Source of the DNA: the human T2T-CHM13v2.0 reference genome, Homo sapiens
NCBI GenBank assembly: GCA_009914755.4
Contig: CP068257.2
Span: 27,488,001 to 27,552,000, forward strand
DNA length: 64,000 nt
Direction: 5' to 3'
Numbering within the stretch: the stretch's first letter is position 1; each line of letters begins with the position of its first letter. Below, in pieces: positions 39,941 through 43,929 of the stretch. Both the position numbers and the translations under genes were made by a program. The notes beneath the pieces are model-generated. The model did no database searches. It saw nothing but the letters and a program-made list of their open reading frames with translations, and was not told where the DNA came from.

Positions 39941-40330
39941 TTTTTTTTTTACAGATGGGATCTTGTTATCTTGCCCAGGCTTGTCTCAAACTTCTGACCT
40001 CAAGCAATCCTCCAACCTTGGCCTCCCAAAGTGCTGGTATTACAGAGTCAATATCAGCAATAAAGGGCTGCTAAGATGAATTGTTAAATTAGGAAATATG
40101 ATTATATCTTATATTTATAAATACATGAGGTTGGTTTTCCAAGGGTTATTAATGATTATTATTTTCATTAATATAGATATGAAATTTCATAAAGGAATTA
40201 AAGATTATTAATAATGTGACCAGTATTGAAGTCAAAGGAAGATTTATATAATCAATAGCCTGTGAATAAATGTATCTTCTGGTGTGTGTATGTGAAGTGT
40301 GGTGGTATAATAAAAATACACACACACACA
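39941..40330. repeat. Local duplicon copy 1. It begins inside a minus-orientation Alu (A-rich middle to 5' end, 39941-40046) and continues through unique sequence ...gagtcaatatcagcaataaagggctgctaag...ttatatttataaatacatgaggttggttttccaagggttattaatgattattattttcatt...gaaatttcataaaggaattaaagattattaataatgtgaccagtattgaagtcaaagg...gtatcttctggtgtgtgtatgtgaagtgtggtggtat.
   Basis: Direct comparison with 42490-42850 (copy 3, first half) and 40690-40860 (copy 2, second half). Confidence 0.75.
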
Positions 40331-40689
40331 AAATTTAATTTTTACAAAAAGCGAATGAAATATATTTTGTGTTGAGAAGTTTGTGAAATCCTTACAATTT
40401 TTTTGAGACTCCCAGAATGGTGGTCGGACAGTATAGCATGATGGTGGACAGTATGGGTTTTGGGGCCAGACTTCTGCAAAACCTCAGTTAGTACCTTACA
40501 AACCCTTCCTTCCTTGCTTGGTTTGCCATGCTTCAAACATAAAATTGTATCTAGACTTTTGGCTACAGGGGATTAAAAGATGTTTATTAGGAGGTCACAA
40601 ATACAAATTTTCTCTTCCATGTCTGACTATTTTCTTTTTGTTCTAAGAGTTTTGATAAAGTTGCTTGGAATACTCAGATTGCATGATTA

Positions 40690-40860
40690 CACACAGTTGG
40701 AGTCCTACAAAAAATTTCATGAAGGAATTGAGGATTATTAATCATGTGATCCATATTGAAGTCAAAGAAGATCTATATGACGAATAGCCTGTAAATGTAT
40801 CTTCTGGTGTGTGTGTGTGAAGTGTGGTGGTATGATAGAAAAATCCTCAGTAATTATGTC
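40690..40860. repeat. Local duplicon copy 2 (second-half unit only): aaaaatttcatgaaggaattgaggattattaatcatgtgatccatattgaagtcaaagaagatctatatgacgaatagcctgtaaatgtatcttctggtgtgtgtgtgtgaagtgtggtggtat
   Basis: About 85-90% identical by eye to 40175-40330. Confidence 0.7.
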
Positions 40861-41018
40861 TCTATTTATAAACTCTTCAGACTGAAGGTACTGGAGGACT
40901 TTGTTATTTAAATTAAATTTATGTGTAGCTTTTTTTTTTTTTGGAAATGCAATACTCATCCCCTAAATTACATGTTCTGTAAGTTTTTTTTATGTTGCAT
41001 TAAAAAAAATATGGTAGG

Positions 41019-41318
41019 GGCCAGACGCAGTGTCTCACACCTGTAATTTCAGCACTTTGGGAGGCCGAGGCAGGCAGATCACCTGAGGTCAGGAGTTCGA
41101 GACCAGCCTGGCCAACATGGCAAAACCCTGTCTCTACTAAAAAATACAAAAATTAGCCTGGTGTAGTGGTGGGCGCATGTAATCCCAGCTACTCGGGAGG
41201 CTGAGGCAGGAGAATCGCTTGAACCCAGGAGGTGAAGGTTACAGGGAGCTGAGATCGTGCCATTGCACTCCAGCCTGGGCAACAAGAGCAAAACTCTGTC
41301 TCAAAAAAAAAAAAAAAA
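41019..41318 (+). mobile_element. Alu SINE (plus) with a 10-bp TSD ATATGGTAGG (41009-41018 and 41321-41330)
   Basis: ggccagacgcagtgtctcacacctgtaatttcagcactttgggaggccgaggcaggcagatcacctgaggtcaggagttcgagacc...tctgtctcaaaaaaaaaaaaaaaa. Confidence 0.9.
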
Positions 41319-41441
41319 TGATATGGTAGGATAATGACATGAGAGTGACTCCTATCTAATGTTTGAAACATATCCTTACTGTTTGCATTGAAAGCAATGA
41401 TAACTCTGGGTACCACTACAACAATATTAAAATGAAAAAAG

Positions 41442-41755
41442 GGGCCAGGCGCAGAGGCTCACGCCTGTAATCCCAGCACTTTGGGAGGAAAGGCAGGCGG
41501 ATCACCTGAGGTCAGGAGTTTGAGACTAGCCTGGCCAACATGGCAAAGCCCTGTCTCTACTAAAAATACAAAAAAATTAGTCGGGTGTGGTAGATAGCAC
41601 GTGCCTGTAATCGCAGCTACTCAAGAGGCTGAGTCATGAGAATTGCTTGAACCCAGTAGGCGGAGGTTGCAGTGAGCCAAGATCACGCCACTGCATTCCA
41701 GCCTGGGTGACGGAGTGAGACTGTCTCAAAAAAATAAAAATAAAAAATAAAAAAA
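41442..41755 (+). mobile_element. Alu SINE (plus) with an A-rich (AAAAT)n-like tail
   Basis: ggccaggcgcagaggctcacgcctgtaatcccagcactttgggaggaaaggcaggcggatcacctgaggtcaggagtttgagac...ctgtctcaaaaaaataaaaataaaaaataaaaaaagg. Confidence 0.9.
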
Positions 41756-42314
41756 GGAAAAGTCAACTTCTAGAAGTAACATGGCTAGCAGGCTAGTGGA
41801 GGTATTTTATACAACCTTCCAGACCACATACAAGTGGGCCGGACCCCCTCCTTAATTACTTATATGCCTGTGTGTGTTTCTGCAGAACTCATCTTGTTTC
41901 CTTCCCCAAAGTACTTGAAGTGTCTCCCTAAATAATTGGCTAGATGTAGGGCCAAGGCCAAATTCTTTCATTATATATATATATTTTCTTTTTCGTAAAG
42001 TCTCAAGTTCCTTTTTCTTCATTCTCACTTCTACCATTTGGGCTTGGGACTTATTACTTGAGATCTTGGTTGATGCAATATTGTAACTAGTTTCCCTGCC
42101 TAGGGTTTCTTGTTGCTAGAAAATGACAGCCAGTTCTTGGCATAGATTTCAAGACCTCCCTGGGGATGCCTTGGAACCTCTGTAGAACTTCCAATCTCAT
42201 CCCTCAACTTCAGCTACATTGGCCTCCTCACTTCTCCCGGGGCAGGAGGTGGGTCCTCCAGTCACTGAGCCCCTGTTCACACCAAGCTCTTGGCCTAACA
42301 GGCCCCTTTCTTCC

Positions 42315-42598
42315 TTTTTTTTTTTTTTTTTTTGAGACAAAGTCTTGCCCTGTCACCCAGGCTGGAGTGCAGTGATGCAATCATAGCTCACTGCAGCCTC
42401 AACCCCCTGAGCTCAAGCAACTCTCCCACCTCAGCCTCTTGAATAGCTGGGACGACAGGTGCATGCCAGCATGCCCAGTTAATTAAAAAAATTTTTTTAA
42501 AGAGATGGCATCTTGCTATGTTGCCCAGGCTGGTCTCAAACTCCTGACCTACAGCAATCCTTCCACGTCAGCCGCCCAAAGTGCTGGTATTACAGAGT
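42315..42598 (-). mobile_element. Alu SINE (minus). Its second half plus the downstream flank form local duplicon copy 3 (about 42490-42850).
   Basis: ttttttttttttttttttgagacaaagtcttgccctgtcacccaggctggagtgcagtgatgcaatcatagctcactgcagcctc...cgcccaaagtgctggtattacagag. Confidence 0.85.
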
Positions 42599-42626
42599 CA
42601 ATATCAGCAATAAAGGACTGCTAGGA

Positions 42627-42733
42627 GGAAAATTGCTCGAACTCGGGAGGTGGAGGTTGCAGTGAGCCTAGATCACACCATTGCACTCCAGCCCGGGTGA
42701 CAGTGCGAGACTCCATTTAAAAAAAAAAAACAA
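42627..42733 (+). mobile_element. 5'-truncated Alu 3' fragment (about 105 bp) nested inside duplicon copy 3, with a perfect 10-bp TSD ACTGCTAGGA (42617-42626 and 42734-42743)
   Basis: ggaaaattgctcgaactcgggaggtggaggttgcagtgagcctagatcacaccattgcactccagcccgggtgacagtgcgagactccatttaaaaaaaaaaaa, flanked on both sides by actgctagga. Copy 1 lacks the insert (aaagggctgctaagatgaattg). Confidence 0.85.
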
Positions 42734-43929
42734 ACTGCTAGGATACATTGTTAAATTGGGAAATATGGTAATATCTTATATTTATAAATACATGAGCTTG
42801 GTTTTCCAAGGATTGTTAATGATCGTTATTTTCATTAAGACTTTACTGAAGTGGAAATTCATTTTGCAACATGTCTTTTCCCAAACAGTCTTTATTTTCA
42901 AGCAAGATATATTGGGCCAAGTGAATTTGACCCAAGTAGTTAGCTCTCCATTTTTTGATGATTCTGTTGAGAATTTCTTTCTCATTATTTCATAAAGTGT
43001 AGCTGATTATGTTGCCTCTAGCTTGGCTGGCGTAAGCTAGATGCAAAGAGATACGCTAACTAAGGTATTTTAAAAGACAGTTTTTCTTTATTGGAGTCGT
43101 TCAGACACTGCTTAAGGTTTGAACTCCAAACTGAACTTCTCTCTCATCTCCAGAGGAGGTCTCCCTGGATCAAGTTTGGGAGAAATTGTCTTAAGAGGCG
43201 TGATGAGAAGAGTTGCTGAAACTGTTATTTTAAATCATATCTGTTGGATGGAGAAAGAGAGTCAAACATTTTCTAGGATTATAAACTCAGCATTGGCTGA
43301 ATCCAATTTAAAGAATCGCTTCTGGCTTATGACCAATGATGTACGAGAGGTTTGTTATATTTTTACTGATTTTTTTTTTCTTCTCCGTGTGAAAAAGGTG
43401 GGAAGGACTTTCTTGAAAGCTTTGAAAAATTACCAAGAATTCTGATATCTTTAAAGAACTCCTGCTATCATTTTTATCTAATTCTTTCTAGGCCTTTTGC
43501 ATGTGAATAGACATTTTAATATAATTGCATATACAGTAACATGGAATGTATAACATGATTTTTTCCGTAAATATTATAAGCATTTTTCTACAACATACCT
43601 AGCTTTTTGTGTATGTAATATGAAAGTCATTGAAATGAGATATAGACATTTTATGGCTTTTGAAATCTATCACCAAATTTAGAAAAAATAAAATAAAAAA
43701 ATGAAATCTATTACCAAATTGTTTGACAGAAATTTTTAAAAGTATATTATTAAGCTACAATCAACTGTAAAGTTTGCTTTGTTCCAGATAAAGCATTTTA
43801 TCTCATCCAGTAGAGAAACCACTTATTTATTTTTTTGGTATGAAATATTGTATTGGGTACTTTGGTGTTTAGAAGATTAACTGAAATGTCAGAAAAATAG
43901 ACAGACTCTTAGAAAAGTCAGATTGAAGA

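What the first reader, a model, noticed from the sequence alone, without database searches (positions are those of the whole stretch)
39941..42850. Local post-Alu segmental duplication: three related copies within 3 kb, one carrying a nested truncated Alu with a perfect 10-bp TSD
Copy 1 (39941-40330) and copy 3 (about 42490-42850) both start inside the same minus-orientation Alu, at its A-rich middle, and share the flanking unique sequence gagtcaatatcagcaataaagg..ctgcta..gaaatatg.taatatcttatatttataaatacatgag.ttggttttccaagg.tt.ttaatga. The duplication therefore post-dates that Alu insertion.

Copy 2 (40690-40860) matches only the distal half of copy 1 (...gaaggaatt.aggattattaat.atgtga.c..tattgaagtcaaag...gtatcttctggtgtgtgt.tgtgaagtgtggtggtat).

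Copy 3 additionally contains a 105-bp 5'-truncated Alu 3' fragment flanked by the identical ACTGCTAGGA on both sides (42617-42626 and 42734-42743). The empty site in copy 1 reads ggctgctaag. This is a clean empty-site versus filled-site pair inside one window.
Basis: seen in the sequence. Interest (0 to 1): 0.5.

Follow-up and report, generated by a model that had tools for sequence, protein, structure and literature searches.

The report
Ancient patchwork duplication in MAP3K7CL intron
The repeats are real, but "copy 1" is a patch stitched from copies of two nearby intron segments next to a small inversion, made in the common ancestor of monkeys and apes: an ordinary, neutral relic of DNA-copying errors.

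Summary
The window is human MAP3K7CL, and the finding lies in its last intron.

Copy 1 consists of A (39607-40171, interrupted by a later + AluS), a 10-nt TA-rich filler, and B (40182-40316). Copy 3 (A', 42462-42838) and copy 2 (B', 40712-40841) are non-overlapping pieces that meet exactly at copy 1's A|B joint.

Orthologous loci settle the direction. Tarsier and lemur have one A, at the A' position, and one B, at the B' position. They have nothing between the flanks of copy 1. All 9 anthropoid loci (great ape, Old World and New World monkeys) carry the whole arrangement. In these species the ~46 nt just left of the patch (39559-39604) is inverted relative to tarsier and lemur.

Copy 1 is therefore a derived chimera: an inversion plus two templated insertions from 0.4 and 2.5 kb downstream. 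It was fixed on the anthropoid stem, roughly 43-65 Myr ago. The most likely cause is one replicative template-switching event.

The nested Alu with its perfect 10-bp TSD is confirmed. It is catarrhine-specific, and New World monkeys keep the orthologous empty site. Substitutions look neutral.

This is a known kind of event and of low interest.

The parts
39559..39604 (.). Segment of about 46 nt (TATATATCACG...GAAATA) that is inverted in all anthropoids relative to tarsier and lemur. It lies immediately left of the patch.
   Evidence: Human 39559-39604 aligns to the reverse complement of the lemur L012 and tarsier L011 target sites. Scores are 33 and 23, reached by 0 of 2000 shuffles. The forward orientation is not significant.
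39607..39641 (-). Left end of the patch: a fragment of the AluJ right monomer copied from 42462-42495. The true left breakpoint is 39606|39607.
   Evidence: 88% identity to 42462-42495. No homology further upstream. The junction is identical in ape, OWM and NWM loci.
39647..39940 (+). Full-length AluS-type element with its poly-A. It inserted into the A/T-rich linker of the copied AluJ after the patch formed. It has an imperfect target duplication of about 11 nt (approximately 39630-39641 and 39933-39945).
   Evidence: Best match is AluSx: 8.5% overall and 3.0% non-CpG divergence. It is absent from copy 3. It is present at the same site in OWM and NWM. Both flanks align to the same 11 nt of copy 3, 42485-42495.
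39941..40045 (-). AluJ left monomer, a copy of 42491-42595. It ends at Alu consensus position 23.
40046..40171 (+). A: a copy of the unique sequence next to the AluJ. Its source is 42596-42626 plus 42744-42838.
   Evidence: 90.5% identity, K2P 0.103. Absent at this position in tarsier and lemur.
40172..40181 (.). 10-nt TA-rich filler at the A|B joint. It reads TATAGATATG in human and TATATATATA in New World monkeys.
   Evidence: Unique in the window. NWM sequence.
40182..40316 (+). B: a copy of 40712-40841.
   Evidence: 89.2% identity, K2P 0.119. Absent at this position in tarsier and lemur.
40317..40331 (.). TA/CA microsatellite at the right junction of the patch. It is (TA)n(CA)n in NWM. Prosimians have (TA)n at the corresponding place.
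40712..40841 (+).
   Evidence: Tarsier and lemur carry their only B here, directly after the ortholog of 40317-40711 and before the ortholog of 40842-41016.
42315..42595 (-). AluJ with its poly-T tail at the left. It is 5'-truncated at consensus position 23 and has no target-site duplication. It is anthropoid-specific and replaces about 376 nt of ancestral sequence.
   Evidence: Best match is AluJo. It is absent in tarsier and lemur, which carry 376 nt of mutually alignable sequence in its place.
42596..42838 (+).
   Evidence: Tarsier and lemur carry their only A here, directly before the ortholog of 42839-43400.
42617..42743 (+). Nested 5'-truncated AluS fragment (42627-42733, Alu positions ~189-end plus poly-A), with a perfect 10-bp TSD ACTGCTAGGA at 42617-42626 and 42734-42743.
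   Evidence: Present in the ape and OWM loci. The empty site GGACTGCTAGGATGAAT is seen in both NWM loci (GGCTGCTAAGATAAAC in tarsier and lemur).

Best explanation
**What is shown**
- The three "copies" are two ancestral single-copy intron segments plus one derived patch.
  - A' lies next to an AluJ at 42.3-42.8 kb.
  - B' lies at 40.7-40.8 kb.
- The patch (39607-40316) consists of:
  - a copy of the AluJ right-monomer end through A';
  - a 10-nt TA-rich filler;
  - a copy of B'.
- The patch sits 0.4 kb upstream of B', right next to a ~46-nt segment that was inverted in place.
- The arrangement arose after the tarsier lineage split off and before New World and Old World monkeys split. It has been inherited by all anthropoids sampled.
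- Later events:
  - a + AluS landed in the patch's Alu linker, still on the anthropoid stem;
  - a 5'-truncated AluS landed in A' on the catarrhine stem, by ordinary target-primed reverse transcription, giving a 10-bp TSD.

**What is inferred**
- The inversion and the two non-collinear templated insertions were made in one event.
- The proposed mechanism is serial template switching of a nascent DNA strand, of the FoSTeS/MMBIR type, or synthesis-dependent repair of a break.
- The event probably started at a palindromic (TA)n tract at the target site. TA-repeat sequence is found at the start of the inverted segment, in the filler and at the right junction.
- The strand would have:
  1. copied the adjacent ~46 nt from the opposite strand;
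  2. jumped about 2 kb downstream into the AluJ and copied about 270 nt;
  3. jumped back about 1.5 kb and copied 135 nt;
  4. returned to the target site.
- The product has no detectable function and has evolved neutrally.
For: **Locus identity**
- The locus is MAP3K7CL.

**Presence and absence across species**
- Orthologous loci came from six Cercopithecidae assemblies, Saimiri/Sapajus, a great ape, tarsier and lemur.
- All 9 anthropoid loci have the order up2, A, B, y, B', x, A', w.
- Tarsier and lemur have up2, y, B', x, A', w, with one A and one B.

**Junctions**
- The left and right patch junctions and the filler sit at identical positions in ape, OWM and NWM.
- The inversion is supported by 0 of 2000 shuffles for both outgroups.
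- A' ends and B' begins within 10 nt of each other in copy-1 coordinates. No homology extends beyond any border.

**Direction of copying**
- The copy 3 AluJ continues intact through the homology border to its poly-T. The copy 1 Alu stops inside the element.

**Single time of origin and neutrality**
- A/A' and B/B' have the same divergence (K2P 0.103 and 0.119).
- Human paralog divergence is 10.2%. Human-NWM ortholog divergence is 7.3-10.8%.
- Changes are symmetric with lemur as outgroup: 13 on the copy branch against 12 on the source branch.

**Literature**
- Iterative template switching is described as producing templated insertions and inverted pieces at complex junctions (PMC5120786 abstract; PMC7954356 and PMC8421209 abstracts).
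Against: - The claim of a single event cannot be proven. No living lineage branches off within the anthropoid stem, so two or three separate events in that 15-20 Myr interval would look the same.
- Microhomology at the junctions cannot be scored reliably after more than 40 Myr. I saw none at the inverted-segment|patch junction (39606|39607). At the right junction I saw only an ambiguous AATAAA.
- The link between the filler and (TA)n rests on 10 nt and on the NWM sequence.
- Only one tarsier and one lemur assembly were examined.
Confidence: 0.7

Rival explanations
1. Stepwise origin. The inversion, the insertion of the A' copy and the insertion of the B' copy were two or three separate break-repair events at the same fragile (TA)n site during the anthropoid stem period.
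For: The comparative data only bracket the whole arrangement between the tarsier split and the NWM split. The + AluS also landed in the same few hundred bases during the same interval, so several hits in that period are possible.
Against: - All novel junctions lie within 760 bp.
- A and B are joined by only 10 nt.
- A/A' and B/B' divergences are indistinguishable.
- Three independent rare events at one site are less parsimonious than one complex event of a well-documented kind.
Confidence: 0.2
2. Copy 1 is the original unit, and copies 2 and 3 are later partial duplicates of it (a serial local segmental duplication).
For: Copy 1 is the only place where A and B are contiguous.
Against: - Tarsier and lemur lack copy 1. 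They have A and B only at the copy 3 and copy 2 positions, continuous with their native flanks.
- Copy 3 holds the complete Alu, whereas copy 1 holds a truncated one.
- The model would need two independent duplications that end and start within 10 nt of each other.
Confidence: 0.02
3. Tandem duplication of the block running from B' to A' created the A|B joint. Most of the upstream copy was then deleted.
For: A tandem duplication of a block that starts with B and ends with A gives an A-to-B junction.
Against: - The order seen is A, B, y, B', x, A'.
- In the outgroups y lies upstream of the only B. A block that starts at B would therefore not contain y, so no simple tandem duplication yields this order.
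- The model does not explain the inverted 46 nt.
Confidence: 0.02
4. The shared "unique" sequence belongs to a dispersed repeat family, and the copies are independent insertions.
For: RepeatMasker and Dfam could not be run, and the sequence is AT-rich.
Against: - A and A' share the same Alu junction and 18 derived Alu substitutions.
- There are no other copies in the 64 kb window.
- A and B occur once each in the 60-kb tarsier and lemur loci, at orthologous positions.
- A metagenome scan for a B 21-mer found only this locus, as a human contaminant. A scan of GTDB genomes for an A 23-mer found nothing. Both scans have low power.
Confidence: 0.01
5. RNA-mediated origin. The patch is a retrocopy of a spliced, back-spliced or chimeric intronic transcript.
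For: The patch joins two non-adjacent pieces of one intron, in the order expected of a back-splice.
Against: - The patch has no poly-A tail or target-site duplication.
- There are no GT/AG signals at the source borders (...CATTAA|GACTTT and ...CTACAAA|AAATTT).
- There is a 10-nt filler at the joint.
- The adjacent inversion is not explained.
Confidence: 0.03

Closest known systems
Replication-based complex genomic rearrangements (FoSTeS/MMBIR; complex insertions with iterative template switches: PMC5120786, PMC8421209)
   Same: - Several novel junctions are clustered together.
- Non-collinear templated segments were copied from nearby DNA.
- An inverted piece is present.
- There is a short filler at a joint, and the source segments are retained.
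   Different: - It is very small (patch of about 0.4 kb, templates within 2.5 kb) and very old, being fixed in a whole primate clade.
- It is not a de novo disease or cancer allele.
- Junction microhomology can no longer be read.
- A single-event origin is inferred, not observed.
Short-range template-switch mutations in great ape genomes (PMC7954356)
   Same: There is a local switch to the opposite strand that gives a small inverted stretch. It is an evolutionary, fixed event seen by comparing species.
   Different: By my recollection, those events are usually tens of bases and involve one round trip. Here the inversion is coupled to two further templated insertions of 270 and 135 nt from up to 2.5 kb away.
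Alu retrotransposition-mediated deletion (Callinan et al. 2005, as cited in PMC2041999)
   Same: This applies to the AluJ at 42315-42595. It is 5'-truncated, has a poly-A tail, has no target-site duplication, and about 376 nt of ancestral target sequence are missing.
   Different: This concerns the older AluJ, not the duplication itself. It cannot be excluded that the deletion was a separate event.
Classical Alu insertion by L1-driven target-primed reverse transcription
   Same: The nested AluS has a poly-A tail, a perfect 10-bp TSD and an orthologous empty site. The + AluS in copy 1 has a poly-A tail and a TSD of about 11 nt.
   Different: The nested element is 5'-truncated to about 107 nt, which is unusual for Alu. 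Its target (AAAGG|ACTGCT) does not look like the TT|AAAA consensus.

Membership tests
Local DNA duplication that post-dates an Alu insertion | The copies share the same Alu joined to the same flank at the same position | tested here: met
   Both copies read ...GCTGGTATTACAG|AGTCAATATCAGC, with the Alu cut at consensus position 23.
Local DNA duplication that post-dates an Alu insertion | The Alu parts share derived substitutions | tested here: met
   18 shared derived differences, against 9 and 10 copy-specific ones, over 132 columns.
Local DNA duplication that post-dates an Alu insertion | The extra copy is absent at the orthologous site in outgroup species | tested here: met
   Tarsier L011 and lemur L012 lack copy 1. 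All 9 anthropoid loci have it.
Interspersed repeat family (independent insertions) | Many dispersed copies in unrelated contexts | tested here: not met
   There are no further copies in the window or in the 60-kb outgroup loci. The external scans found only this locus, with low power.
Interspersed repeat family (independent insertions) | Match to a curated repeat consensus (RepeatMasker/Dfam) | not testable with these tools
   No repeat library is available. Rfam shows only Alu-derived hits in 39000-43500.
Replication-based complex rearrangement (FoSTeS/MMBIR type) | Two or more templated segments from nearby sites, joined out of genomic order, with the sources retained | tested here: met
   The patch is A-copy then B-copy, whereas the sources lie in the order B' then A'. 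Both sources are intact.
Replication-based complex rearrangement (FoSTeS/MMBIR type) | An inverted segment or strand switch at the breakpoint cluster | tested here: met
   46 nt are inverted relative to both outgroups, with 0 of 2000 shuffles reaching the score.
Replication-based complex rearrangement (FoSTeS/MMBIR type) | Microhomology at the junctions | tested here: inconclusive
   There are more than 40 Myr of substitutions. No microhomology is seen at 39606|39607. At the right junction AATAAA is ambiguous. TA-repeat sequence recurs at three junctions.
Replication-based complex rearrangement (FoSTeS/MMBIR type) | All junctions were formed in one event | not testable with these tools
   The event is only bracketed to the anthropoid stem. 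Equal A/A' and B/B' divergence is consistent with one event.
Alu insertion by target-primed reverse transcription (nested AluS) | Poly-A tail, flanking target-site duplication and an orthologous empty site | tested here: met
   The TSD ACTGCTAGGA is present twice, with an A-rich tail at 42719-42733. The empty site is seen in NWM, tarsier and lemur.
Alu insertion by target-primed reverse transcription (nested AluS) | L1 endonuclease-like target (TT|AAAA) | tested here: not met
   The target reads AAAGG|ACTGCTAGGA. This feature is a tendency, not a requirement.
Alu retrotransposition-mediated deletion (AluJ at 42315-42595) | An Alu with a tail but no TSD, with target sequence missing relative to outgroups | tested here: met
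   No TSD is present. 376 nt are present in the tarsier, alignable with the lemur, and absent from human and NWM.

The most novel reading that the evidence does not exclude
A single germline micro-scale chromoanasynthesis-like event produced the whole arrangement, fixed in the ancestor of all monkeys and apes. It involved four or five template switches within 3 kb and was seeded at a palindromic (TA)n tract. If so, it is a clean rare-genomic-change marker for Anthropoidea. It would also be a dated natural example of hairpin-prone TA repeats acting as a hub for serial template switching.
Probability: 0.45. Interest if true: 0.3.

Novelty: new member of a known kind. Interest (0 to 1): 0.2.

Why it matters
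- The finding matters mostly as a worked example. Within one window, the copy that looks most complete can be the derived chimera, and only outgroup loci reveal the direction.
- The locus gives four nested, cleanly ordered rare genomic changes that are usable as phylogenetic markers:
  1. the AluJ insertion with its target deletion;
  2. the composite patch with the inversion;
  3. the + AluS, which like the first two is on the anthropoid stem;
  4. the nested AluS on the catarrhine stem.
- It adds one dated, fixed case to the catalogue of small template-switch rearrangements in primate evolution.
- No function or disease relevance is indicated. It lies deep in the last intron of MAP3K7CL and evolves neutrally.

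Tried and rejected
1. **Homology beyond the A and B borders.** Local alignments with shuffles showed none.
2. **A template for the 10-nt filler in the window.** None was found.
3. **Structured RNA or miRNA in the repeated parts.** Rfam gave only Alu-derived sub-threshold hits.
4. **Identifying the locus from the 108-aa ORF at 43119-43445.**
   - PDB and Pfam gave nothing.
   - The big protein search returned only a JGI gene call on a human-contaminant contig.
   - The locus was identified instead from the true MAP3K7CL exons.
5. **External scans for dispersed family members.**
   - The metagenome scan for a B 21-mer hit only a chimeric human-contaminant contig of this same locus.
   - The GTDB genome scan for an A 23-mer found nothing.
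   - Both scans have low power.
6. **The Aotus protein P0004.** It was not on record for a locus look-up.
7. **Models considered and rejected.**
   - The tandem-duplication-plus-deletion and circular-intermediate models were considered before the outgroup data. They were rejected on segment order.
   - A back-splice retrocopy was rejected for lack of splice signals, a tail and a TSD.
8. **My first age estimate.** The 25-50 Myr figure from divergence alone was replaced by the phylogenetic bracket.

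
Full report
**1. What is in the sequence**

- The region is human-type, Alu-rich DNA. There are 34 Alu intervals in the 64 kb window.
  - 39935-40080 aligns with 42485-42630 without gaps at 85.6%.
  - 40068-40171 aligns with 42735-42838 at 89.4%.
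  - 40182-40316 aligns with 40712-40841 at 89.2%.
- BLAST E-values are 1e-28 to 1e-38. No other copy of the non-Alu parts exists anywhere in the window, with or without Alu masking.
- The nested + Alu fragment (42627-42733) is flanked by a perfect ACTGCTAGGA at 42617-42626 and 42734-42743. Copy 1 has the undisturbed GCTGCTAAGA at 40067-40076.

**2. Corrections to the anatomy**

- Copy 1 does not begin at the A-rich middle of the Alu.
  - A full-length + AluS (39647-39940) sits in that linker.
  - Upstream of it, 39607-39641 continues the same minus-strand AluJ. It aligns with 42462-42495 at 88%.
  - Both flanks of the + Alu align to the same 11 nt of copy 3, which marks its target-site duplication.
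- The true left breakpoint is therefore 39606|39607, inside the AluJ right monomer.
- In copy 3 the AluJ continues intact through that point to its poly-T at 42315.
- The two Alu parts share the same 5' truncation (consensus position 23) and the same flank junction. They share 18 derived differences from AluJo, against 9 and 10 private ones.
- Copies 2 and 3 do not overlap.
  - A' stops at the equivalent of 40171 and B' starts at the equivalent of 40182.
  - The 10 nt TATAGATATG lie between them in copy 1.
  - No homology extends past any border.
- The genomic order is A-B ... B' ... A'. That coincidence of borders suggested copy 1 was a junction-bearing derivative and not the master copy.

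**3. Locus**

- ORFs in the window encode the exons of MAP3K7CL (TAK1-like, C21orf7).
- A protein search returned MAP3K7 C-terminal-like proteins of many vertebrates.
- The human 142-aa protein maps to window 11963-~12031, 27810-27872, ~38553-38675 and 53324-53503.
- The finding lies in the last intron.

**4. Comparative test**

Exact-protein look-ups fetched the orthologous gene plus flanks from these species (species names):

| Group | Loci |
|---|---|
| Cercopithecidae (six assemblies) | L003-L008 |
| Saimiri / Sapajus | L009, L010 |
| Great ape | L013 |
| Tarsier, Carlito syrichta | L011 |
| Lemur, Eulemur rufifrons | L012 |

I mapped sixteen human segments onto them.

- Every anthropoid locus has the human order: up2, A, B, y, B', x, A', w.
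- Tarsier and lemur have up2, y, B', x, A', w.
  - Each has a single B directly after y.
  - Each has a single A directly before w.
  - Neither has a patch.
- B' and A' are therefore the ancestral segments in native context, and copy 1 is derived.
- The patch junctions and the filler are at identical positions in ape, Old World and New World monkeys. The arrangement therefore predates the platyrrhine-catarrhine split and postdates the tarsier split.
- From general knowledge of primate divergence times, that is roughly 43-65 Myr ago.
- Divergences agree.

| Comparison | Divergence |
|---|---|
| Human paralogs (A/A' plus B/B') | 10.2% |
| Human-NWM orthologs | 7.3-10.8% |
| A/A' unique part (K2P) | 0.103 |
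| B/B' (K2P) | 0.119 |

- With lemur as outgroup, 13 changes fall on the copy branch and 12 on the source branch. That is neutral evolution.

**5. An inversion at the target**

- The ~46 nt just left of the patch (39559-39604, TATATATCACG...GAAATA) match the reverse complement of the lemur and tarsier target sites.
- Scores are 33 and 23, reached by 0 of 2000 shuffles. The forward orientation is not significant.
- The prosimian site reads L, S (~45 nt), (TA)n, R.
- The anthropoid site reads L, TATATA, rc(S), [AluJ part + A, TA-rich 10-mer, B], (TA)n(CA)n, R.
- The filler is TATATATATA in New World monkeys.

**6. Mechanism**

- Shown: an inversion and two templated insertions, drawn out of genomic order from 0.4 and 2.5 kb downstream, are clustered within 760 bp. 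The sources are retained.
- Inferred: one replication-based event with serial template switching (FoSTeS/MMBIR type), or synthesis-dependent break repair, started at the hairpin-prone (TA)n.
- This matches published junction signatures of complex insertions and template-switch mutations.
- It cannot be proven to be a single event, because no living lineage splits the anthropoid stem.
- Microhomology is unreadable after more than 40 Myr.

**7. Later and earlier events at the locus**

- The + AluS in copy 1 is at the same site in New World monkeys, where it lacks about 96 nt. It also dates to the anthropoid stem.
- The nested AluS is present in the ape and Old World monkeys and absent in New World monkeys. 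They keep the empty site GGACTGCTAGGATGAAT. It is therefore a catarrhine-stem insertion with a true orthologous empty site.
- The AluJ itself is absent in tarsier and lemur. About 376 nt of mutually alignable ancestral sequence sit in its place. This explains its missing TSD and 5' truncation as an insertion with target deletion (the concept is cited in PMC2041999).

**8. Rivals**

- Tandem duplication plus deletion is contradicted by segment order, because y precedes the only B in the outgroups.
- Independent insertions of a dispersed repeat are contradicted by four observations:
  - the shared Alu junction;
  - single orthologous copies in the outgroups;
  - the absence of other copies in the window;
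  - external scans that recovered only this locus.
- No repeat library could be run.
- An RNA-mediated origin lacks a tail, a TSD and splice signals.
- A stepwise origin on the same stem remains possible, at about 0.2.

**9. Verdict**

- It is a specific, well-resolved instance of a known class of mutation, with no sign of function.
- Interest is low. Its value is as a phylogenetic marker and as an example of how the apparent master copy can mislead.

Noticed in passing
window 42315-42595; L011 38011-38386; L012 ~40230-40563: The minus-strand AluJ next to A' has no target-site duplication and is 5'-truncated at consensus position 23. It replaces about 376 nt that tarsier and lemur still carry. 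This is an Alu insertion with target deletion on the anthropoid stem.
   Followed up: yes
L001 (JGI Ga0326364_1051947) and L002 (OJNM01055494.1): Two metagenome contigs are human contamination from this very locus, and both are chimeric assemblies. Identity to the window breaks inside an Alu (near window 42360) in L001. It breaks at the (TG)n of B' (window 40821) in L002.
   Followed up: yes
window 43119-43445 (+): This 108-aa ORF looks exon-like, with an AG before it and a GT after it. It is not part of any MAP3K7CL isoform retrieved and has no Pfam or PDB match. The surrounding 42839-43400 is somewhat better conserved in lemur (85%) than neighbouring intron sequence (about 77-80%).
   Followed up: partly
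window ~25750-27040: A low-complexity tandem array of more than 1 kb, rich in TA, TG and CA. It produces long spurious ORFs in several frames.
   Followed up: no
window 54542-54820: A long purine-rich GA/GAAA tract just downstream of the last MAP3K7CL exon.
   Followed up: no
window 44640-45880 versus 7978-8628 and 35765-35915: These stretches are about 64% similar in direct orientation. Part of them also matches L1-like sequence in the foreign half of contig L002. It is probably an old L1-type interspersed repeat.
   Followed up: no
L004 41684-42265: One Old World monkey locus has about 430 extra nucleotides inside A', next to the nested Alu. The gap there is 582 nt, against about 150 nt in the other OWM loci. 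It is presumably a lineage-specific insertion.
   Followed up: no
L009 38298-38503; L010 37406-37609: The New World monkey orthologs of the + AluS in copy 1 lack about 96 nt of the 3' part of the element.
   Followed up: partly
window 39901-39982: The tail-to-tail junction of the + AluS and the minus AluJ left monomer forms a 41-nt imperfect palindrome. It gives a sub-threshold mir-1303-like Rfam hit (39.9 bits, against a gathering score of 107).
   Followed up: no
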